The notes: generated by a model not told the origin, from the sequence alone. Counted from the stretch's first letter, positions 1-4,650 are shown. The stretch: DNA of 4,650 bases from Patescibacteria group bacterium (GCA_004321885.1 SCQK01000012.1:1-4650); one strand, 5' to 3'. Program-made: numbers and translations.

Positions 1-120
1 GATGTTTGATACGTCCCAAACAAAACGTAACAAACCTTGTCCTGATTCACGAACGCGAAAGGTCGAAAAACTTACTTATTGAAACGAGAAAGAGTGTCTT
101 AAAAAAGGGGTACTTGCCAA
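1..120. repeat. Left copy of a perfect 120-bp inverted repeat (terminal inverted repeat of the window); may extend beyond the window edge
   Basis: Bases 1-120 are the exact reverse complement of 4531-4650; I checked all twelve 10-mers by hand. Identity breaks at 121 (g, versus a expected from 4530). By eye the repeat is AT-rich and A-tract-rich and unlike its inner flanks. Confidence 0.95.
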
Positions 121-433
121 GGAGCTCGATGATTCGAGAGTGGAAGTTGGGTGGGGTATTCAGCTTATAGCTTTCGCTCCGCCAACCTCTGACTGGTTCA
201 TCGTGACCAATCTCTCCTGCTCCGCGCAGATCTTTTTTATCCAGCTCGAGACCTGTCTTTGCTTCGTAAAACTCGAGTAGCCAATCGTGCCGGCCGATTT
301 CGTTGTTCCCCACAAGGAGGAGCTCCGAGTCGCCGTCAACGAAGTATAGGAACTTATGGCCGCGATGCTTTGACGGATCGTAAGCGCACACTTCAATATC
401 GCGACCGTCATAGCAAACAAAAAAACGCTTCAT
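47..433 (-). CDS. Hypothetical 128-aa soluble protein; last gene of the murJ operon, translationally coupled. Its C-terminal ~24 aa and stop codon are encoded by the left repeat copy.
   Basis: ATG at 431-433 is preceded by a strong SD: minus-strand UAAGGAGAAAAGCA-AUG, where UAA is the murJ stop and GGAG is 7 nt upstream. The ORF is 128 codons. Codons from about residue 105 onward lie inside the repeat (positions <=120); the stop is at 44-46. No family recognised from the sequence alone. Confidence 0.6.
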   Translation of the reverse strand: MKRFFVCYDGRDIEVCAYDPSKHRGHKFLYFVDGDSELLLVGNNEIGRHDWLLEFYEAKTGLELDKKDLRGAGEIGHDEPVRGWRSESYKLNTPPNFHSRIIELLGKYPFFKTLFLVSISKFFDLSRS

Positions 434-444
434 TGCTTTTCTCC

Positions 445-2091
445 TTACTCATTGTTTGTTATAGCCTCGGTGGTAGGCAGGTTCTTCACCCGCAACCACC
501 GACGGGTCAAGGCGTTTTTGAGCTGTAATAATTCAGGCACCTTTAAGATATAACACAAGAGGCAATAAATTGCCAGACCGGCCAGACCCGCCACCGCTCC
601 TTGTCCGAAAATGCCCCAAAAATACCTTTGGTCAAAAATTTCCGCCAGCGGGTATTTCAAAAATTGCACGGCCAGGGCCATGGGAACGGTCGCGATAATA
701 ATTTTGTAAACGGAGGAGGTGAATGAAAGGGGCTGCTTCGCTTCGCTCGCAGTGACAATAGCGGGTGACCGACTTTTCAGCTCACTTCGCAGGGCCAGCG
801 ACAGGGCGGTGAAGTTTACCACAGCCGCGATGGAAAAGGCCAAAGCCAATCCGGCCACACATAGGGGTTTCATTAAAAGCAAAGAGGCGATGATGCCGAT
901 AAGTTCGGAAATAACGCCAATGACAAACGGGGTTTTGGTATTGGACAAGGCGTAGAAGGCGCGGGCGAGCAGGGGAATGAGCGCCTGGGCGAACAAACTC
1001 AACGCGAACAAAGCCAGGGCGTCGGCTGTGGCAATGGTGGCGGTCCAGTTAAATTCGCCGGTGCCCAGCACCACACGCACGATTTGCGCGCGCAACAGCA
1101 TCATTATTATGGAAAGCGGAACAATCAAAAAAATTATCTGGCGCATGGTGGCCGACAGATTTTTCACGAATTCTACGTGGTCGTTTTTGGCCGCGGCCGC
1201 CGACAGCACGGGAAACACCGCCATGGCAAACGGGATGCCGAAGATGCCGATGGGCACGGCCTGCAAATTGCTCGCGAAATTAAAAATTGCCACACTGCCG
1301 GCCGGCAAAAGCGACGCTAACATGGTGATAATCACCAAGTTAAGTTGGCTGACAGCTAAGCCCATGGTGCGCGGGGCCATCAGCTTGGCCACCGAGAGGG
1401 TATTTTTTTCACGCGGTCTGAAAATCCATTGCCAGCGCCAGCCGTTGGCGTAGGCGCTATACAGTTGAAGCAAAAAATGCATGGCCGCGCCCAAGACCAC
1501 GCCCCAGGCCAAGCCGGAGATGCCGATGGCCGGCACCAAAGCGACCGCGCCCACGATAATCCCCAAGTTGTAAAATATCGGGGCGATGGAGTACATGAAA
1601 AAACTGCGCAGTGATTGTAAGATACCGCCAAGCACCATGGACAGCCCGAGCAAAAAAGTGGAGCCAAACATGATGCGAGTGAAACTTATTACCAGCTCGC
1701 GGCTGAAGCCGTTAAACCCGGGCGCGATAATCGCGGCCAGGGCCGGGGTGAAAATTACACCGAGCGCGCTTAGGGCAAGAAGCGAAACAGCCGTAATGTT
1801 CAAAATGTTATTGGCCAGTTTCCAGGCCGGACTTTTGTCTTCGCCTTCGTGAAAAAGGCGGGTAAAGGTGGGAATAAAGGCGGCGCTAAGCGCGCCCACG
1901 ATGAGCAGGTTATAAATCAGGTCCGGTACTTTGAAAGCGGCGTAGTAGGCGTCCATTATCGGGCCCGCGCCAAAGTAGTGCGCAAAAATACGGTCGCGAA
2001 AAAGGCCGATGAGGCGGCTGATAAGAGTGGTGCCGGCGATAATAATAGCGGCACCGGTGATGGTTTTTGATTGGCCGTTGAGGAATGACAT
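445..2091 (-). CDS. murJ: Lipid II flippase MurJ (MviN), MOP superfamily, about 549 aa
   Basis: Long hydrophobic polytopic ORF. The N-terminal region RLIGLFRDRIFAHYFGAGPIMDAYYAAFKVPDLIYNLL..AFIP matches the conserved MurJ/MviN N-terminus (E. coli [30 protein letters not shown]). Start assigned to ATG 2089-2091 (MSFLNGQ...). The 17-codon upstream extension in the ORF track (to 2142) would translate the structured palindromic element and begins with TTG, so I rejected it. Stop is TAA at 445-447. Confidence 0.9.
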   Translation of the reverse strand: MSFLNGQSKTITGAAIIIAGTTLISRLIGLFRDRIFAHYFGAGPIMDAYYAAFKVPDLIYNLLIVGALSAAFIPTFTRLFHEGEDKSPAWKLANNILNITAVSLLALSALGVIFTPALAAIIAPGFNGFSRELVISFTRIMFGSTFLLGLSMVLGGILQSLRSFFMYSIAPIFYNLGIIVGAVALVPAIGISGLAWGVVLGAAMHFLLQLYSAYANGWRWQWIFRPREKNTLSVAKLMAPRTMGLAVSQLNLVIITMLASLLPAGSVAIFNFASNLQAVPIGIFGIPFAMAVFPVLSAAAAKNDHVEFVKNLSATMRQIIFLIVPLSIIMMLLRAQIVRVVLGTGEFNWTATIATADALALFALSLFAQALIPLLARAFYALSNTKTPFVIGVISELIGIIASLLLMKPLCVAGLALAFSIAAVVNFTALSLALRSELKSRSPAIVTASEAKQPLSFTSSVYKIIIATVPMALAVQFLKYPLAEIFDQRYFWGIFGQGAVAGLAGLAIYCLLCYILKVPELLQLKNALTRRWLRVKNLPTTEAITNNE

Positions 2092-2181
2092 GTCATTGCG
2101 AGGTCGCGTAAGCGACCGAAGCAATCCCATCCGTAATCGCAAGGAATTGCTTCGTCGGCCTACGGCCTCCTCGCAATGACA
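2091..2181 (-). promoter_or_regulatory. Nested-palindrome structured element filling the whole intergenic gap upstream of murJ. Candidates: cis-regulatory RNA or leader structure; REP- or MITE-like palindromic element.
   Basis: Outer 13-bp perfect inverted repeat: TGTCATTGCGAGG (2091-2103) with CCTCGCAATGACA (2169-2181). It encloses three hairpins with 0-2 nt linkers: TCGC-GTAA-GCGA (2104-2115); CGAAGCAAT (2117-2125) with ATTGCTTCG (2146-2154), a 9-bp stem around a 20-nt interior; and GGCC-TAC-GGCC (2157-2167). The upstream gene's stop (TAG, 2182-2184) and the murJ ATG (2089-2091) abut the element directly. Confidence 0.55.
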
Positions 2182-2883
2182 CTACGATGGAGACAAATTC
2201 ACCGTCAGTATGGCCGTGGCCGTGCCTTGTGTGGCTGTTCCCGCGCTACTGGCGAACATGGAGCCGGAAATCTCGTCTTTGCTGAACGAAAATTGTTTGA
2301 CAGTGTCGCTCTCGCTTTCCAAATCAATTTTATAGCCTTTTTTTTGCAGTTCCACTTTGTAGTAGCCGATGACAAAATACGGCTCGGCGTTCATATTCTT
2401 CCATTCTATCTGCACCGTGTCGCGATGGTCGGAAACCGGCGACGCAATCATTTTCCAGATGTTCTTGGCCAGGGCCAGCCGCCCAGCGCCCGCGTCTGTG
2501 GAAGTCGGCGTTAGTTGGTCTTTGTTCATGGCCAAAAATAGGGGAGATAAAATCACTTTTGGAAAAAAGGCCGCGATTTCCACGCCGCGGTTTTTGTATT
2601 TGCCCGAGACAAAAGTGATGCGCTCTATATTGTCTTTGTCGTAAAGAGGAATGTCTTGGGGAAAATTTTCCGGTACGGATTTCAAATTTTGCGGACCGCT
2701 GCCCATGGACAGGCGCAAGACAATCGCGCCGACGATGATGACAATCAAAAGACAACCGCAGCCGCCGAGGCAGGCGCGTTTTATTGAAGAAAAGGCCGAG
2801 TATTTCTTGCTGATTTCTCCAATCGGCGGTTCAACAATTTCCACGTCCTTAATAAGGTCGCGTCGCATAAATACAATTGTCAT
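2182..2883 (-). CDS. Hypothetical single-pass membrane protein (233 aa): short cytoplasmic N-terminus, one TM helix, about 170-aa extracytoplasmic domain. First gene of the murJ operon.
   Basis: ORF of 233 codons with one strongly hydrophobic segment (CLLIVIIVGAIVL) after a K/R-containing N-terminus. The start could be ATG 2881-2883 or the in-frame ATG six codons downstream (2866-2868). No clear SD, and a hairpin overlaps the first ATG. No family recognised. Confidence 0.65.
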   Translation of the reverse strand: MTIVFMRRDLIKDVEIVEPPIGEISKKYSAFSSIKRACLGGCGCLLIVIIVGAIVLRLSMGSGPQNLKSVPENFPQDIPLYDKDNIERITFVSGKYKNRGVEIAAFFPKVILSPLFLAMNKDQLTPTSTDAGAGRLALAKNIWKMIASPVSDHRDTVQIEWKNMNAEPYFVIGYYKVELQKKGYKIDLESESDTVKQFSFSKDEISGSMFASSAGTATQGTATAILTVNLSPS

Positions 2884-2902
2884 CCTGAACTAGTTTCAGG
2901 AT
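2882..2902 (-). promoter_or_regulatory. 8-bp stem hairpin overlapping the first ATG of the 233-aa gene (candidate translational control element)
   Basis: A-TCCTGAA-CTAGT-TTCAGGA-T forms a perfect 8-bp stem with a 5-nt loop. The start codon at 2881-2883 lies at the edge of the stem. Confidence 0.3.
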
Positions 2903-2916
2903 CTCAGGTCGCATTT

Positions 2917-2945
2917 ATTGTAGCATGTTTCCCTCCCCTTGACAA
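2917..2945 (-). promoter_or_regulatory. Sigma70-like promoter for the 233-aa gene and murJ operon (-35 TTGTCA, 17-nt spacer, -10 TACAAT on the minus strand)
   Basis: Plus-strand coordinates: -10 is ATTGTA at 2917-2922 (reverse complement TACAAT). The spacer 2923-2939 is 17 nt. -35 is TGACAA at 2940-2945 (reverse complement TTGTCA). The predicted transcription start near 2910 gives a short leader containing the start-codon hairpin. Confidence 0.4.
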
Positions 2946-2966
2946 AAGTTTTATCCGTGGTATTAT
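2939..2966 (+). promoter_or_regulatory. Strong sigma70-like plus-strand promoter with an extended -10 (TTGACA, 16-nt spacer, TGgTATTAT). It is divergent from the operon promoter, with overlapping -35 elements.
   Basis: TTGACA at 2939-2944 is a perfect -35. TG at 2958-2959 and TATTAT at 2961-2966 form an extended -10. No plus-strand ORF lies downstream; the transcript would be non-coding. Confidence 0.45.
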
Positions 2967-2973
2967 TAGTTTA

Positions 2974-3030
2974 GAAAAAGACTTTCGGCCGTGGTTCATA
3001 TACCACAAACTGGCGGAAAGCCTTTTTTGT
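2974..3030 (+). ncRNA. Candidate small non-coding RNA or 3'UTR-antisense transcript driven by the plus-strand promoter
   Basis: The predicted start is near 2974. Hairpin GTGGT-TCATAT-ACCAC (2991-3006) can be extended by GCC/GGC pairing (2988-2990 with 3012-3014). A short GGC-GGAAA-GCC stem follows, then TTTTTTGTTTT at 3023-3033. The region has no ATG and no ORF. The stems are weak, so termination is uncertain. If the transcript reads through, it is antisense to the 137-aa gene. Confidence 0.25.
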
Positions 3031-3031
3031 T

Positions 3032-3445
3032 TTATTCATCAGGAAATACCGAGATTAGCCATTTCTGATTATTCTTTTTATTTTGTTTGATTTGAACGAG
3101 AAATTTTTCTCTGTCTTTAGTTACGCCGACGAAACGGTGTAATATTTCAGATTTATCGTTCGGGTTATCTTTGGAAATCGGATCAAAGCGGCAATTTTGA
3201 ATTAGTTCAATTGCGCAAGGGTAATATTTCACTCGTCTAATTTTATCTCTGTGATTAAGTTTCGTGTGCAGGTGTTGCCAAAAAAGTTCTAAAAAGATTT
3301 TTTCTTTGTTGAAATACGCCGAACGGATATACGGACGGCGTTTTGTTTTTCTCTTTATTTTTTGGTATTGCGCGAATGCGTGTTTGTAAACTTCGCTGAA
3401 ATTCGTGCCTGACAATTTTGATGATTTGACTTTGTAAACCTCCAT
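3032..3445 (-). CDS. Hypothetical 137-aa lysine/arginine-rich basic protein encoded by AT-rich sequence; function unknown. Possibilities are nucleic-acid binding, a toxin-like protein or a phage-like protein.
   Basis: A 137-codon ORF in AT-rich DNA, where stop codons are expected to be frequent, so it is unlikely to be spurious. There is a single ATG candidate at 3443-3445 with no SD. A putative extended -10 about 10 nt upstream suggests a leaderless or near-leaderless mRNA. No conserved catalytic motif recognised. I looked for an HEPN Rx4-6H motif and found none. Confidence 0.55.
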   Translation of the reverse strand: MEVYKVKSSKLSGTNFSEVYKHAFAQYQKIKRKTKRRPYIRSAYFNKEKIFLELFWQHLHTKLNHRDKIRRVKYYPCAIELIQNCRFDPISKDNPNDKSEILHRFVGVTKDREKFLVQIKQNKKNNQKWLISVFPDE

Positions 3446-3454
3446 AGTGCGGAT

Positions 3455-3463
3455 ATTTTATCA
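3455..3463 (-). promoter_or_regulatory. Extended -10 element (TGATAAAAT on the minus strand) about 10 nt upstream of the 137-aa gene ATG; possible leaderless start
   Basis: Minus strand reads cGTGATAAAATatccgcactATG. The TGnTAAAAT pattern matches an extended -10. The -35 is poor. Confidence 0.3.
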
Positions 3464-3535
3464 CGATAAGGGATAAAATAAAAGATTCGCGGGTTCGCAC
3501 AAAAAAACCGGCGTGAGGTGCTGGTTGCGCAATTT

Positions 3536-4189
3536 TCACGGTTCCGATATTCGCCAGCCAACATTTGGCACTTGTACGAACATCATAGATTCAGATTCGT
3601 CGTCCGCGTAGACCTCGTAGAATCTTGCTTCACCAAGATCCTTGGTTATTTTCATCTCGGCTCGATTGAGCCAGCCAGCAATATCTGCAGTGCCGCCGGC
3701 GGAATGGATGGTTTGGAAAAGTTCGTTGCATCGACGTCGGCTGTCTTGGTCGGGCGCACAGGCCGCTAGCACCAAGTTTAGATCTTGCGCCTGCCAACCG
3801 GCGGCATACAACTTGAACGACTCCTCAGGCGATGCCAATGGAAGCAGTGCGCGTTCTTGTAATTTGGATATCCAGACAAATTTTATTACCCACAAATCTA
3901 ATATTGGGTCAATGTAGGCAGAACGCGGGTTTGCTTTTACTACTTCGGCGCCGTATGGCATTGCCATCAGTTTTGTTTTACCGGCTTCTAAATCAATTGG
4001 ATAACCCGGTGAGGAATATCCGATAACGGAGCCATTGATCCTATCGCGCGTGTCGTTTATAAAAACATAATAATCTGGCATGATTAGGAATATTTTTAAG
4101 ATGCCAATAATTAATAGTATTAAAATTATAAATAGTGTGCTTATTAAAAGTTTTTTGAATCTCCTCATATGACATGAAGTTAACTTCAT
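3536..4189 (-). CDS. Hypothetical 217-aa protein with an N-terminal signal-anchor or TM helix and a C-terminal domain of roughly 170 aa predicted outside the cytoplasm; function unknown
   Basis: ATG at 4187-4189 is preceded by AAGAGGU, 11 nt upstream. An alternative in-frame ATG lies at 4166-4168. The N-terminus MKLTSCHMRRFKK is followed by a hydrophobic stretch of about 25 residues (LLISTLFIILILLIIGILKIFLIM). By eye the gene is GC-mosaic: the anchor region is very AT-rich and the C-terminal domain about half GC. Stop is TGA at 3536-3538. Confidence 0.65.
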   Translation of the reverse strand: MKLTSCHMRRFKKLLISTLFIILILLIIGILKIFLIMPDYYVFINDTRDRINGSVIGYSSPGYPIDLEAGKTKLMAMPYGAEVVKANPRSAYIDPILDLWVIKFVWISKLQERALLPLASPEESFKLYAAGWQAQDLNLVLAACAPDQDSRRRCNELFQTIHSAGGTADIAGWLNRAEMKITKDLGEARFYEVYADDESESMMFVQVPNVGWRISEP

Positions 4190-4224
4190 TCTTAAATTTA
4201 CCTCTTTTGTGGAAATTTGTAAAC

Positions 4225-4245
4225 AAAAAACCGACTGGGTGTCGG
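4225..4245 (-). terminator. Rho-independent terminator on the minus strand (CCGAC-ACCCA-GUCGG followed by UUUUUUGUUU)
   Basis: Plus strand reads AAAAAA (4225-4230), CCGAC (4231-4235), TGGGT (4236-4240), GTCGG (4241-4245). On the minus strand this is a 5-bp GC-rich stem with a 5-nt loop followed directly by six U residues. It sits between the GC-rich fragment and the 217-aa gene. Confidence 0.5.
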
Positions 4246-4354
4246 GGGACCGCCTGTATAGCCATCAGGCTGGCTGCCACAGGACGTGGCGAGGGAAGGT
4301 GCTTACAGCGAGGCGAAGAAGCCGGGCAGGGCCGGCGCTATCTCGCGGGATGAG

Positions 4355-4650
4355 TTAGACCCGCTTTGGGGTTTGGAGCGGCACGCCCACTTCCACAATG
4401 ATGGCACAGTACCACGGATCGAACATCATGATCCGTGTGATGGCCTGTTCCACCTCGGCCCGTTCCATGCCTTCCGCCACCACCTTGCCGAGGCGCACCG
4501 CCATCCAGCGGGATGCCGGGTTGTGTGGCTTTGGCAAGTACCCCTTTTTTAAGACACTCTTTCTCGTTTCAATAAGTAAGTTTTTCGACCTTTCGCGTTC
4601 GTGAATCAGGACAAGGTTTGTTACGTTTTGTTTGGGACGTATCAAACATC
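4355..4650 (-). CDS. 3' portion of a GC-rich gene; product unknown. The frame stays open through the right repeat copy to the window edge. It is either a gene continuing beyond the window or a remnant truncated at the repeat junction.
   Basis: Stop TAA at 4355-4357. The reading frame is open from 4358 to 4650. The first codon in the ORF track is TTG at 4643-4645, which is not a real start. The non-repeat part (4358-4530, ...ASRWMAVRLGKVVAEGMERAEVEQAITRIMMFDPWYCAIIVEVGVPLQTPKRV) looks GC-rich by eye. The repeat part is AT-rich, and there is a sharp compositional break at 4530/4531. Confidence 0.35.
   Translation of the reverse strand, partial: CLIRPKQNVTNLVLIHERERSKNLLIETRKSVLKKGYLPKPHNPASRWMAVRLGKVVAEGMERAEVEQAITRIMMFDPWYCAIIVEVGVPLQTPKRV
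4531..4650. repeat. Right copy of the perfect 120-bp inverted repeat
   Basis: Exact reverse complement of 1-120 (120/120). Identity ends at 4530. Confidence 0.95.

What the first reader, a model, noticed from the sequence alone, without database searches (positions are those of the whole stretch)
2903..4250. AT-rich two-gene block (basic 137-aa protein plus membrane-anchored 217-aa protein) inserted between the murJ operon and a GC-rich gene remnant
The block spanning 2903-4250 looks clearly more AT-rich than murJ (by eye) and far more than the right-hand fragment. It carries its own promoter signals. It encodes two unrecognisable proteins. One is strongly K/R-rich and cytoplasmic, possibly a nucleic-acid-binding protein or toxin-like. 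The other is N-terminally anchored with an extracytoplasmic domain. A terminator at 4225-4245 and the promoter cluster at 2913-2967 delimit it. A compositionally distinct two-gene module embedded in a housekeeping context is a typical signature of a small acquired accessory cassette, such as a toxin-immunity or defence-like pair. Its function cannot be read from the sequence.
Basis: partly seen in the sequence, partly recalled or inferred. Interest (0 to 1): 0.5.

Follow-up and report, generated by a model that had tools for sequence, protein, structure and literature searches.

The report
Predicted RNase gene with convergent hairpin RNA
The AT-rich block is not a protein-protein cassette: its conserved core is a predicted phage-type (BECR-fold) RNase gene paired tail-to-tail with a tiny, strongly promoted hairpin RNA gene. 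This undescribed module recurs in hundreds of Patescibacteria genomes, and the 217-aa membrane protein beside it is an unrelated orphan.

Summary
The AT-rich shift is real but patchy. GC is 0.35 for the 137-aa gene and 0.35 / 0.53 for the two halves of the 217-aa gene, against 0.54 for murJ.

The two proteins are not a pair:
- The 217-aa membrane-anchored protein has no relative in any database searched.
- The 137-aa protein belongs to a family of at least 779 protein clusters across Patescibacteria (45-100% pairwise identity). No Pfam or NCBIfam model reaches its cut-off. The family has no conserved protein neighbour, and some genomes hold several or tandem copies.

The AlphaFold model of the 137-aa protein (pLDDT 94) matches phage polyvalent and MuF-C proteins, which carry PBECR RNase domains, and weakly matches RelE and CdiA-CT toxins. 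The family conserves the PBECR/colicin-D signature: His58 in a helix and an invariant Ser132 in the last strand.

The true partner is an RNA. In 85 of 85 family loci, a conserved ~55-nt hairpin follows the stop codon. It is preceded on the opposite strand by a near-consensus promoter (window 2939-2966, predicted start ~2973). Pairing is supported by covariation, and G-U pairs favour the antisense strand. Rfam has no matching family.

Best reading: an RNA-controlled, toxin-antitoxin-like accessory module, meaning a predicted RNase plus a convergent small RNA.

The parts
2917..2945 (-). Promoter-like site facing the orf233-murJ operon: -35 TTGTCA 2945-2940, 17-nt spacer, TG-extended -10 TACAAT 2922-2917. 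It belongs to the housekeeping operon, not to the block's genes. Its -35 overlaps the -35 of the small-RNA promoter, back to back.
   Evidence: 10 of 12 matches, with TG. The orf233 ATG is at 2883. orf233 and murJ are syntenic in relatives.
2939..2966 (+). Near-consensus sigma-70-type promoter of the predicted small RNA: -35 TTGACA 2939-2944, 16-nt spacer, TG 2958-2959, -10 TATTAT 2961-2966. Predicted start is near A2973.
   Evidence: 11 of 12 matches, with TG. The same promoter sits at a fixed distance from the hairpin in 71 of 81 family loci (at least 9 of 12 matches; perfect TTGACA in 54; TG in 53). 68% of loci reach 10 of 12, against 1.4% of shuffles.
2973..3030 (+). Predicted ~55-nt hairpin small RNA, convergent with the 137-aa gene. 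Its U-tract runs up to the gene's stop codon (3032-3034). The same hairpin read on the minus strand is the terminator of the 137-aa mRNA, so it is a bidirectional terminator.
   Evidence: Covariance model R1 hits window 2970-3030(+) at 81.6 bits, E = 7e-19. Folding gives -22.2 kcal/mol, z = -5.0. The consensus structure is 91.5% paired, has 12 pairs with compensatory changes, and no shuffle of 500 reaches it. No Rfam family matches.
3032..3445 (-). 137-aa basic protein: a standalone (solo) PBECR-like, BECR-fold predicted RNase. It belongs to an unnamed Patescibacteria-wide family.
   Evidence: family size and conserved residues. (AlphaFold pLDDT 94). (fold matches). (sub-threshold PBECR2 and PBECR3 hits).
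3455..3463 (-). Extended -10 element (TGaTAAAAT) of the 137-aa gene, ending 9 nt before the ATG (3445). No Shine-Dalgarno sequence is present, so the mRNA is predicted to be leaderless or nearly so.
   Evidence: Sequence. 25 of 66 family loci have a -10-like hexamer ending 6-11 nt before the ATG, against 4.4% at random ATGs. Only 4 of 66 have an SD-like sequence.
3536..4189 (-). 217-aa orphan protein (NCBI aa) with an N-terminal membrane anchor and a predicted extracytoplasmic domain. It is not part of the conserved module. The N-terminal half has GC 0.35 and the C-terminal half 0.53.
4195..4223 (-). Weak promoter-like site upstream of orf217 (TTTACA / TAAATT, 9 of 12 matches). A GAGG at 4204-4201 lies 11 nt before the ATG.
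   Evidence: and sequence. A consensus match only.
4231..4245 (-). Intrinsic-terminator-like hairpin plus T-run on the minus strand. It ends the right-hand gene (4355-4645) and lies upstream of orf217. A second assembly stops at 4228, just before it.

Best explanation
The block holds two unrelated things.

(A) Window ~2939-3463 is one copy of a compact, widespread Patescibacteria module with two convergent genes.
- The first gene is leaderless and encodes a 137-aa basic protein with a phage-type BECR (PBECR / colicin-D-like) fold. It is predicted to be a metal-independent endoribonuclease using His58 and Ser132.
- The second is a ~55-nt hairpin RNA, transcribed from a near-consensus promoter on the opposite strand and ending at the same bidirectional terminator. 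The RNA is therefore fully complementary to the 3' end of the protein's mRNA.
- I propose it works as an RNA-controlled toxin-antitoxin-like or accessory module. The abundant small RNA holds the RNase in check. It could do so by pairing with the mRNA 3' hairpin, followed by duplex cleavage and decay, which is the geometry of 3'-overlapping type I systems. Alternatively it could bind the protein directly, as in type III systems; the sequence-conserved bulges and loop hint at this.
- SHOWN: the family, the fold similarity, the conserved residues, the 100% linkage of gene and hairpin, the conserved promoter, the covariation and the strand asymmetry.
- INFERRED: that the RNA is transcribed, that the protein has RNase activity, that it is toxic, and how the RNA acts.

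(B) orf217 (3536-4189) is a lineage-specific orphan membrane-anchored surface protein with its own expression signals. It is not a partner of the 137-aa protein.
For: PROTEIN FAMILY
- 779 clusters at 90% identity with E <= 0.01, the listed ones 60-78% identical to the window protein.
- 292 clusters at 50% identity.
- 217 tblastn-confirmed hits in GTDB species genomes labelled Magasanik-, Uhr-, Moran-, Peregrini-, Gracili-, Kerfeld-, Doudna-bacteria and others.

FOLD AND RESIDUES
- AlphaFold pLDDT 94.
- Foldseek against viral models: the top hits are phage polyvalent and MuF-C proteins. The top six have E = 4.5e-4 to 1.5e-2, probability 0.99-1.0 and TM-score (query-normalised) 0.51-0.60.
- The distant member P0220 hits Pfam PBECR2 (E = 0.0019, 83 of 120 profile positions) and PBECR3 (E = 0.026).
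- His58 is conserved in at least 90% of members and lies in helix 53-61. Ser132 is invariant and lies in the last strand. This matches the PBECR/colicin-D site described in PMC5512222.

NO PROTEIN PARTNER
- The commonest neighbour family occurs in 5 of 87 loci.
- Median gaps to the nearest ORF are 103 nt upstream and 143 nt downstream.

RNA
- A conserved element lies right after the stop codon in all loci.
- Model R1 hits 85 of 85 family loci, always on the convergent strand. 26 of those loci were not used to build the model. It hits neither of the two murJ control loci.
- Structure and covariation.
- 165 G-U cells against 40 A-C cells. The hairpin is more stable on the antisense strand in 57 of 59 loci.
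- A promoter at a fixed distance in 71 of 81 loci.

ACCESSORY BEHAVIOUR
- Variable context.
- Two or three copies per genome and tandem copies.
- Identity within a taxon is about the same as between taxa (0.58-0.61 against 0.57-0.60).
- Not next to murJ in relatives.
Against: - There is no expression data. The small RNA and its start site are predictions.
- I could not inspect coordinates, so I do not know whether His58 and Ser132 lie next to each other.
- His103 is replaced by Tyr in most distant members. His58 is Arg in the fusions to STAND NTPases.
- A mean pairwise identity of ~59% across class-level lineages is unusually high for a toxin. It would suit a housekeeping factor.
- Classical type I toxins are small hydrophobic peptides, and type III antitoxin RNAs are tandem repeats upstream of the toxin gene. 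Neither matches.
- In the window itself the hairpin is equally stable on both strands (-22.2 against -23.3 kcal/mol).
- A cis-antisense RNA does not by itself explain why the hairpin's primary sequence is so conserved.
Confidence: 0.5

Rival explanations
1. A housekeeping or regulatory RNA-processing factor specific to Patescibacteria. The 137-aa protein would be a non-toxic RNase or RNA-binding protein acting on a conserved cellular RNA. The convergent RNA would simply tune its expression, or be its substrate or cofactor (a small RNP).
For: - Very strong sequence conservation (mean 59%, invariant basic residues) across class-level lineages.
- Chromosomal only: no hit in IMG/VR, the phage collection or the plasmid collection.
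- The gene usually stands alone with its own promoter and terminator.
- Conserved unpaired nucleotides in the hairpin suggest specific protein recognition.
Against: - Distribution is patchy.
- Some genomes hold several divergent paralogues and tandem copies.
- There is no conserved genomic position and no phylogenetic signal by taxon.
- The nearest fold relatives are conflict-system effectors.
Confidence: 0.25
2. A small mobile element of IS200/RAYT type. The protein would be a recombinase or transposase, and the conserved hairpin a DNA recognition site at the element's end.
For: - Variable context, multiple copies and tandem copies.
- Extra solo hairpins in L046, L069 and L042.
- In a subset of loci both ends carry inverted copies of CCGATATGCG...TTTTGGCCTTTTC.
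- A tyrosine recombinase is adjacent in 3 loci.
- The 'HLH' at residues 58-60 of the window protein resembles an HUH motif.
Against: - The fold is BECR/RelE-like, not HUH/Y1. No transposase appears among the fold hits.
- The second His of 'HLH' is not conserved.
- There is no dispersed hairpin family: within ~525 kb searched, every hit lies beside a family gene.
- A consensus promoter aimed at the hairpin and the G-U asymmetry point to an RNA.
- The window copy has no terminal repeats.
Confidence: 0.08
3. One reading: orf137 and orf217 form an acquired toxin-immunity or defence pair.
For: - The two genes are adjacent on the same strand, 90 nt apart.
- Both are partly AT-rich.
- orf137 has a toxin-like fold.
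Against: - orf217 has no relative in 5.8 billion protein clusters, the phage collection or JGI metagenome contigs.
- No family locus has a comparable conserved neighbour.
- orf137 has its own promoter directly upstream.
- PADLOC has no hit for either protein.
Confidence: 0.03
4. The hairpin is only an unusually conserved bidirectional terminator, and the facing promoter is incidental. No functional small RNA exists.
For: - The A-tract / hairpin / T-tract architecture is that of a bidirectional intrinsic terminator.
- No transcript data are available.
Against: - Intrinsic terminators are not normally sequence-conserved across classes.
- The promoter is conserved in position and quality in 71 of 81 loci, against ~10% of shuffles at the same cut-off of 9 of 12 matches.
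- G-U pairs favour the antisense strand in 57 of 59 loci.
Confidence: 0.12

Closest known systems
PBECR domains (Pfam PBECR1-5; phage Barnase-EndoU-ColicinE5/D-RelE-like nucleases; Iyer et al. 2017, PMC5512222) and the colicin-D-like BECR RNases
   Same: - Predicted fold: helices followed by a four-stranded sheet.
- The best structural matches are phage polyvalent and MuF-C proteins.
- A family member gives sub-threshold hits to PBECR2 and PBECR3.
- A conserved His in the helix and a conserved Ser in the C-terminal strand. The Arg variant in the STAND fusions parallels the sixth PBECR family, which has Arg at the same position.
   Different: - Cellular and chromosomal in Patescibacteria, not in phages, plasmids or polyvalent proteins.
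- Carries an extra basic N-terminal ~50 residues.
- Far more conserved than conflict effectors usually are.
- Paired with a dedicated small RNA.
- Does not reach any Pfam cut-off.
Type I toxin-antitoxin systems with 3'-overlapping convergent RNAs (par/fst RNA I-RNA II of pAD1; txpA/RatA and bsrG/SR4 of Bacillus subtilis). Comparison from my own knowledge of the field.
   Same: - Convergent toxin mRNA and small RNA sharing a bidirectional terminator.
- The small RNA's promoter is much stronger than the protein gene's.
- Patchy, multi-copy, variable-context distribution.
   Different: - The protein is a 137-aa soluble basic predicted RNase, not a hydrophobic peptide under 60 aa.
- The RNA is only the shared hairpin, with no extra 5' targeting region.
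- The hairpin's sequence is conserved across lineages, which cis-antisense pairing does not require.
SymE/SymR of E. coli (a type I pair whose toxin is reported as RNase-like). From my own knowledge.
   Same: A soluble protein of ~110-140 aa with proposed RNA-cleaving activity, controlled by a cis-antisense small RNA.
   Different: - SymE has an AbrB-type fold, and SymR overlaps the 5' end and ribosome-binding site.
- Here the fold is BECR and the overlap is at the 3' end.
Type III toxin-antitoxin systems (ToxIN, AbiQ/antiQ). From my own knowledge.
   Same: - An endoribonuclease toxin neutralised by a dedicated structured RNA.
- Conserved unpaired nucleotides in the RNA suggest protein recognition.
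   Different: - Type III RNAs are tandem repeats encoded upstream on the same strand and processed by the toxin.
- Their toxins have a different fold. No tandem repeats occur here.
RelE/ParE-superfamily type II toxins (Gerdes 2025, PMC11980606)
   Different: - No adjacent protein antitoxin in any conserved form.
- No hit to any of the Pfam toxin families of this superfamily.

Membership tests
PBECR / colicin-D-like BECR RNases | [quoted passage not shown] | tested here: met
PBECR / colicin-D-like BECR RNases | Active site: His (or Arg) in the N-terminal helix plus a C-terminal Ser/Thr | tested here: inconclusive
   His58 (at least 90% conserved; Arg in the STAND fusions) lies in helix 53-61, and Ser132 (invariant) lies in the last strand.
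PBECR / colicin-D-like BECR RNases | Sequence match to a Pfam PBECR model above its gathering score | tested here: not met
   The window protein has no hit. The best family member scores 18.8 bits against a cut-off of 27.1 for PBECR2, and 14.9 against 30 for PBECR3.
PBECR / colicin-D-like BECR RNases | Encoded by phages or conjugative elements, often inside polyvalent proteins | tested here: not met
   No relative in IMG/VR, in 50,697 phage records or in 72,556 plasmid records. The genes are solo, in chromosomal contexts.
Type I toxin-antitoxin system | A cis-encoded antisense RNA overlapping the toxin mRNA | tested here: inconclusive
   Predicted only: convergent promoter, shared terminator and covarying hairpin in 85 of 85 loci. 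No transcript evidence.
Type I toxin-antitoxin system | Toxin is a small (under ~60 aa) hydrophobic membrane peptide | tested here: not met
   The protein is 137 aa, basic and predicted to be a soluble globular alpha/beta fold.
Type I / type III toxin-antitoxin system | The protein is toxic and the RNA neutralises it | not testable with these tools
   Needs expression experiments.
Type III toxin-antitoxin system | Antitoxin RNA made of tandem repeats upstream of the toxin on the same strand | tested here: not met
   The RNA is a single hairpin, downstream of the gene and on the opposite strand.
Type II RelE/ParE toxin-antitoxin module | Adjacent, co-transcribed protein antitoxin gene | tested here: not met
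   No conserved neighbour. Only 11 of 75 loci have a same-strand ORF of at least 80 aa within 30 nt upstream, and 5 of 78 downstream; no neighbour family recurs in more than 5 of 87 loci. The window's neighbour, orf217, is an orphan.
IS200/IS605 or RAYT-type element | HUH/Y1 transposase fold and conserved HUH motif | tested here: not met
   No transposase among the fold hits. Residue 60 is variable.
Known RNA families (Rfam 15) | Match at or above a family's gathering score | tested here: not met
   No hit at E <= 1 over the whole window. The best hit in 2930-3045 is 16.3 bits against a gathering score of 50.

The most novel reading that the evidence does not exclude
The module could be a new class of RNA-partnered effector system that is widespread in Patescibacteria. 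In this reading a phage-type BECR RNase has been domesticated. It is held inactive by, or acts together with, a dedicated sequence-conserved ~55-nt hairpin RNA that binds the protein directly, rather than working only as an antisense RNA. In about a third of loci the RNA promoter appears coupled to a DnaA-box-like site, which would tie the module to replication or cell-cycle state. The same protein domain also sits at the C-terminus, the usual sensor position, of HNH-STAND NTPases. That placement suggests it recognises a specific RNA ligand.
Probability: 0.2. Interest if true: 0.8.

Novelty: new variant of a known kind. Interest (0 to 1): 0.62.

Why it matters
Patescibacteria (CPR) make up a large share of bacterial diversity, yet most of their conserved small genes have no assigned function, and almost nothing is known about their small RNAs or toxin-antitoxin biology.

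This analysis gives a concrete, testable two-part unit: a protein plus an RNA, with predicted promoter, start site, structure and catalytic residues. The unit recurs in hundreds of genomes, and no Pfam, NCBIfam or PHROGs model reaches significance for the protein (the single PADLOC hit is at E = 0.13) and no Rfam family for the RNA.

If the RNA controls a BECR RNase, RNA-antitoxin systems would extend to a toxin fold so far tied to protein antitoxins, polymorphic toxins and phage polyvalent proteins.

For genome annotation, it shows that an AT-rich 'island' next to murJ is a family-typical compositional signature and not proof of recent transfer.

Tried and rejected
- **Family libraries.** Pfam, NCBIfam, PHROGs and PADLOC on all six ORFs found only MurJ.
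- **PDB by sequence.** Profiles A1 and A3 gave nothing below E ~0.9.
- **PDB by structure.** Foldseek found no significant hit, best E = 0.19. The afdb50 library was unavailable.
- **orf217.** No relatives among 5.8 billion protein clusters, phage records or JGI metagenome contigs. The single-sequence AlphaFold model has pLDDT 43 and could not be used for fold search.
- **Phage or plasmid origin of the family.** No hits in IMG/VR, the phage collection or the plasmid collection.
- **Conserved protein partner.** Clustering neighbouring ORFs of at least 60 aa found a maximum of 5 of 87 loci (Bro-N-like), then FtsH in 4, and a tyrosine recombinase in 3. Rejected as partners.
- **Small 'ORFs' downstream.** They clustered across 36 loci but are conserved in several frames and on both strands. 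They are therefore the RNA/DNA element and not a peptide.
- **tRNA or a known RNA in the window.** None found.
- **Recent insertion inferred from GC alone.** Rejected, because the family is AT-shifted everywhere.
- **Other copies of the contig's 120-nt terminal repeat.** An exact-match scan of metagenome contigs found none.
- **The NCBI contig's own gene calls.** The look-up by protein P0001 was not on record.
Full report
**1. What the window is**

The 4650-nt window is a whole NCBI contig of a 'Patescibacteria group bacterium' MAG. Both block proteins match NCBI entries from a 4650-nt contig, with locus tags EPN28_02890 and EPN28_02895. All the larger ORFs read on the minus strand:
- orf128, 47-433
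- murJ, 445-2142 (Pfam MurJ 2e-91; TIGR01695 7e-101)
- orf233, 2182-2883
- orf137, 3032-3445
- orf217, 3536-4189
- a partial ORF, 4355-4645

A second assembly (Logan, run SRR8426592) reproduces window 91-4228 at 100% identity.

**2. The observation**

The compositional shift is real but not uniform.

| Region | GC | GC3 |
|---|---|---|
| murJ | 0.536 | 0.67 |
| orf233 | 0.49 | 0.60 |
| orf137 | 0.35 | 0.37 |
| orf217, N-terminal half | 0.35 | 0.36 |
| orf217, C-terminal half | 0.53 | 0.53 |
| 4250-4530 | 0.64 | not computed |

- The minus-strand promoter at 2945-2917 faces orf233-murJ.
- The plus-strand promoter at 2939-2966 faces the hairpin at 2974-3028.
- The terminator at 4245-4231 is on the minus strand and lies upstream of orf217, so it ends the right-hand gene.
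- orf137 has its own extended -10 (TGaTAAAAT, 3463-3455) ending 9 nt before its ATG, with no Shine-Dalgarno sequence. It ends at a strong hairpin.

**3. orf217**

Its only match among 5.8 billion protein clusters is itself. The phage collection and JGI metagenome contigs gave nothing, and no family library has a hit. A single-sequence AlphaFold model is confident only for the N-terminal helix (pLDDT 43 overall). I read it as a lineage-specific, membrane-anchored, outward-facing orphan.

**4. orf137 is a member of a large family**

- It has 779 relatives at E <= 0.01. The 120 listed are 60-78% identical over the full length.
- There are 292 clusters at 50% identity.
- There are 217 tblastn-confirmed hits in GTDB species genomes, labelled Magasanik-, Uhr-, Moran-, Peregrini-, Gracili-, Kerfeld-, Doudna-, Kuenen-, Falkow- and Buchananbacteria among others.
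- Genomic context is completely variable.
- Among 87 independent loci, no neighbour family occurs in more than 5.
- Several MAGs hold two or three copies, and four loci hold tandem copies.
- Copies in the same genome are as divergent as random pairs (0.53-0.73). Identity within a taxon is about the same as between taxa.
- The family is absent from IMG/VR, the phage collection and the plasmid collection.
- The gene is AT-shifted relative to its flanks in general: mean -0.069, and the slope of gene GC on flank GC is 0.48. The window copy is not an outlier, with z = -1.3.
- In the closest murJ relatives found (72% identity), orf233-murJ is syntenic (orf233 62% identical). Neither orf137, orf217 nor the RNA motif is nearby.

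**5. What the protein looks like**

The AlphaFold model has pLDDT 94 and pTM 0.86. It shows a long basic helix (16-33), a beta-hairpin (39-51), three helices (53-84) and a four-stranded sheet (90-135). Four lines of evidence point the same way.
- Foldseek against PDB finds nothing significant.
- Foldseek against viral models gives phage 'large polyvalent protein', 'PolyVal ADP-ribosyltransferase' and 'MuF C-terminal domain' proteins as top hits. The top six have E = 4.5e-4 to 1.5e-2, probability 0.99-1.0 and query-normalised TM-score 0.51-0.60 over 122-160 alignment columns. These are the proteins in which Iyer et al. defined the PBECR RNase domains (PMC5512222).
- The distant family member P0220 hits Pfam PBECR2 (E = 0.0019, profile positions 27-109 of 120) and PBECR3 (E = 0.026). 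Both are below the cut-offs.

In the broad alignment, F51, R71, G107 and S132 are invariant. R36, S42, K49, W56, H58 and K62 are conserved in at least 90% of members. A His in the helix plus a C-terminal Ser/Thr is the PBECR/colicin-D configuration, and one PBECR family has Arg in place of His. The same Arg substitution appears where this domain forms the C-terminus of HNH-STAND NTPases (P0162, P0189).

I therefore call it a solo, cellular, PBECR-like predicted RNase. Formal Pfam membership is not met.

**6. The real partner is an RNA**

Clustering small 'ORFs' around the gene showed that the DNA just after the stop codon is conserved in several frames and on both strands. Inspection showed a ~55-nt element in every locus. 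The evidence that it is a small-RNA gene on the opposite strand is as follows.

- **Promoter.** On the strand opposite the gene, the element is preceded by a promoter at a fixed distance.
  - 71 of 81 loci have at least 9 of 12 matches to the sigma-70 consensus.
  - 54 have a perfect TTGACA, and 53 have a TG-extended -10.
  - The -10 ends 15-18 nt before the TTCGGCC core.
  - 68% of loci reach 10 of 12 matches, against 1.4% of shuffles.
- **Start site.** The predicted start is the purine at the foot of the hairpin, so the transcript is essentially the hairpin plus a U-tract.
- **Structure**.
  - The consensus is an A/U-rich outer stem and a GGCUUUC/GGAAGGUC stem.
  - It has a conserved G-G mismatch, a 3-bp stem and a 5-nt 3' bulge.
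  - It ends in a 5-bp GUGGU/ACCAC stem with a 6-nt UUAUAU loop.
  - 91.5% of cells are paired, against 50-61% when the partners are slid.
  - 12 pairs show compensatory changes, and no shuffle of 500 reaches the observed values.
- **Strand.** G-U pairs (165 cells) far outnumber A-C (40 cells). The hairpin is more stable on the antisense strand in 57 of 59 loci, mean -24.9 against -17.0 kcal/mol. The window is one of the exceptions, at -22.2 against -23.3.
- **Linkage.** Covariance model R1 finds the element in 85 of 85 family loci, always convergent with the gene. 26 of those loci were not used for training. Tandem gene copies each have their own element. The two murJ control loci have none.
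- **Not a known family.** Rfam 15 has no match.

Window coordinates:
- -35 at 2939-2944
- -10 at 2961-2966
- predicted start ~2973
- hairpin 2974-3028
- U-tract abutting the stop codon at 3032-3034

**7. Mechanism**

What is shown is a protein gene and a convergent hairpin-RNA gene, inherited together, sharing a bidirectional terminator, with a strong RNA promoter and a weaker leaderless protein promoter. A -10 element ends 6-11 nt before the ATG in 25 of 66 loci, against 4.4% at random ATGs, and an SD-like sequence occurs in only 4 of 66.

This is the geometry of 3'-overlapping type I toxin-antitoxin loci. The fold is that of conflict-system RNases. I infer a toxin-antitoxin-like module in which the small RNA restrains the RNase.
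- It could pair with the mRNA 3' hairpin, leading to duplex cleavage and decay.
- It could bind the protein directly. The conserved mismatch, bulge and loop make this plausible.

The main rival is a non-toxic RNA-processing or RNA-binding factor specific to Patescibacteria with antisense control. That reading is favoured by the unusually strong conservation. A mobile-element reading and a 'terminator only' reading are less likely (see the rival explanations).

**8. Verdict on the finding**

The AT-rich stretch and both ORFs are real. The boundaries and signals were assigned to the wrong genes.
The 137-aa protein is toxin-like and behaves as an accessory gene. The protein-protein cassette is rejected.
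- The interesting object is the 137-aa gene plus small-RNA module at ~2939-3463, which appears undescribed. No Pfam, NCBIfam, PHROGs or Rfam entry matches, and three full-text searches found no description. I cannot exclude a description in papers outside the library.

Noticed in passing
window 1-120 and 4531-4650: The contig ends are a perfect 120-nt inverted repeat. The second assembly (Logan) stops at 91, which is 30 nt into the left arm, and at 4228. It therefore does not confirm the junction to the GC-rich right fragment (4250-4530, GC 0.64). This may be an assembly-graph artefact or chimera, or a real inverted repeat of at least 120 nt flanking the 4.4-kb segment. An exact-match scan of metagenome contigs found no other copy.
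   Followed up: partly
window 2092-2181: A long palindromic element (gtcattgcgagg...cctcgcaatgac; inner arms 2107-2133 / 2138-2164) fills the spacer between orf233 and the likely murJ start at M18 (ATG 2091-2089). The 565-aa murJ ORF probably starts too far upstream, since relatives are 538 aa. It resembles the short dispersed palindromic repeats common in such genomes; that comparison is from memory and was not tested.
   Followed up: no
window 2881-2905: A small perfect hairpin (catcctgaa-cta-gtttcaggat..) overlaps the orf233 start codon and lies in the 5' leader downstream of the 2945-2917 promoter. The Logan assembly calls orf233 from M6 (228 aa).
   Followed up: no
family loci, e.g. L013, L012, L001, L054, L065, L088 (not in the window): A DnaA-box-like TTATCCACA (at most 1 mismatch) lies just upstream of the small-RNA promoter's -35 in 24 of 78 loci, against 2.7% of background 80-nt windows. 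This may mean DnaA-linked control of the small RNA.
   Followed up: partly
family loci L065, L073, L076, L013, L084, L091, L024, L030 (flanks of the module): In a subset of loci, both ends of the module carry inverted copies of CCGATATGCG...(A)AnTTTTGGCCTTTTCTTTT. One copy sits upstream of the protein-gene promoter and one upstream of the small-RNA promoter. The TTTTGGCCTTTTC part occurs in 12 of 78 loci against 0.7% background. It could be a shared regulatory site or the terminal repeats of a mobile unit. The window copy lacks it.
   Followed up: partly
L050, L073, L078, L035 (tandem gene copies); L046 2891-2949 and 3526-3586; L069 2824-2883; L042 1754-1814: Some loci hold tandem copies of the whole module, and some hold extra solo hairpins next to the gene. 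In L078 a tyrosine recombinase (Phage_integrase, 3e-41) sits between two copies, and L037 and L022 also have one adjacent.
   Followed up: partly
proteins P0162 (685 aa), P0189 (736 aa), P0209 (299 aa): The 137-aa domain also occurs as the C-terminal domain of STAND/NACHT-type NTPases, once with an N-terminal HNH nuclease. In these fusions His58 is replaced by Arg. Their source organisms and contexts were not retrievable.
   Followed up: partly
window 3536-4189: orf217 is compositionally two-part: the N-terminal half has GC 0.35 and GC3 0.36, the C-terminal half GC 0.53 and GC3 0.53. This may mean a fused or mosaic gene. No homologue exists to test the idea.
   Followed up: no
window 47-433 and 4355-4645: orf128 and the right-hand partial ORF have no hit in any family library and no counterpart beside murJ in relatives. 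Both run into the terminal repeat arms, so their ends are uncertain.
   Followed up: no
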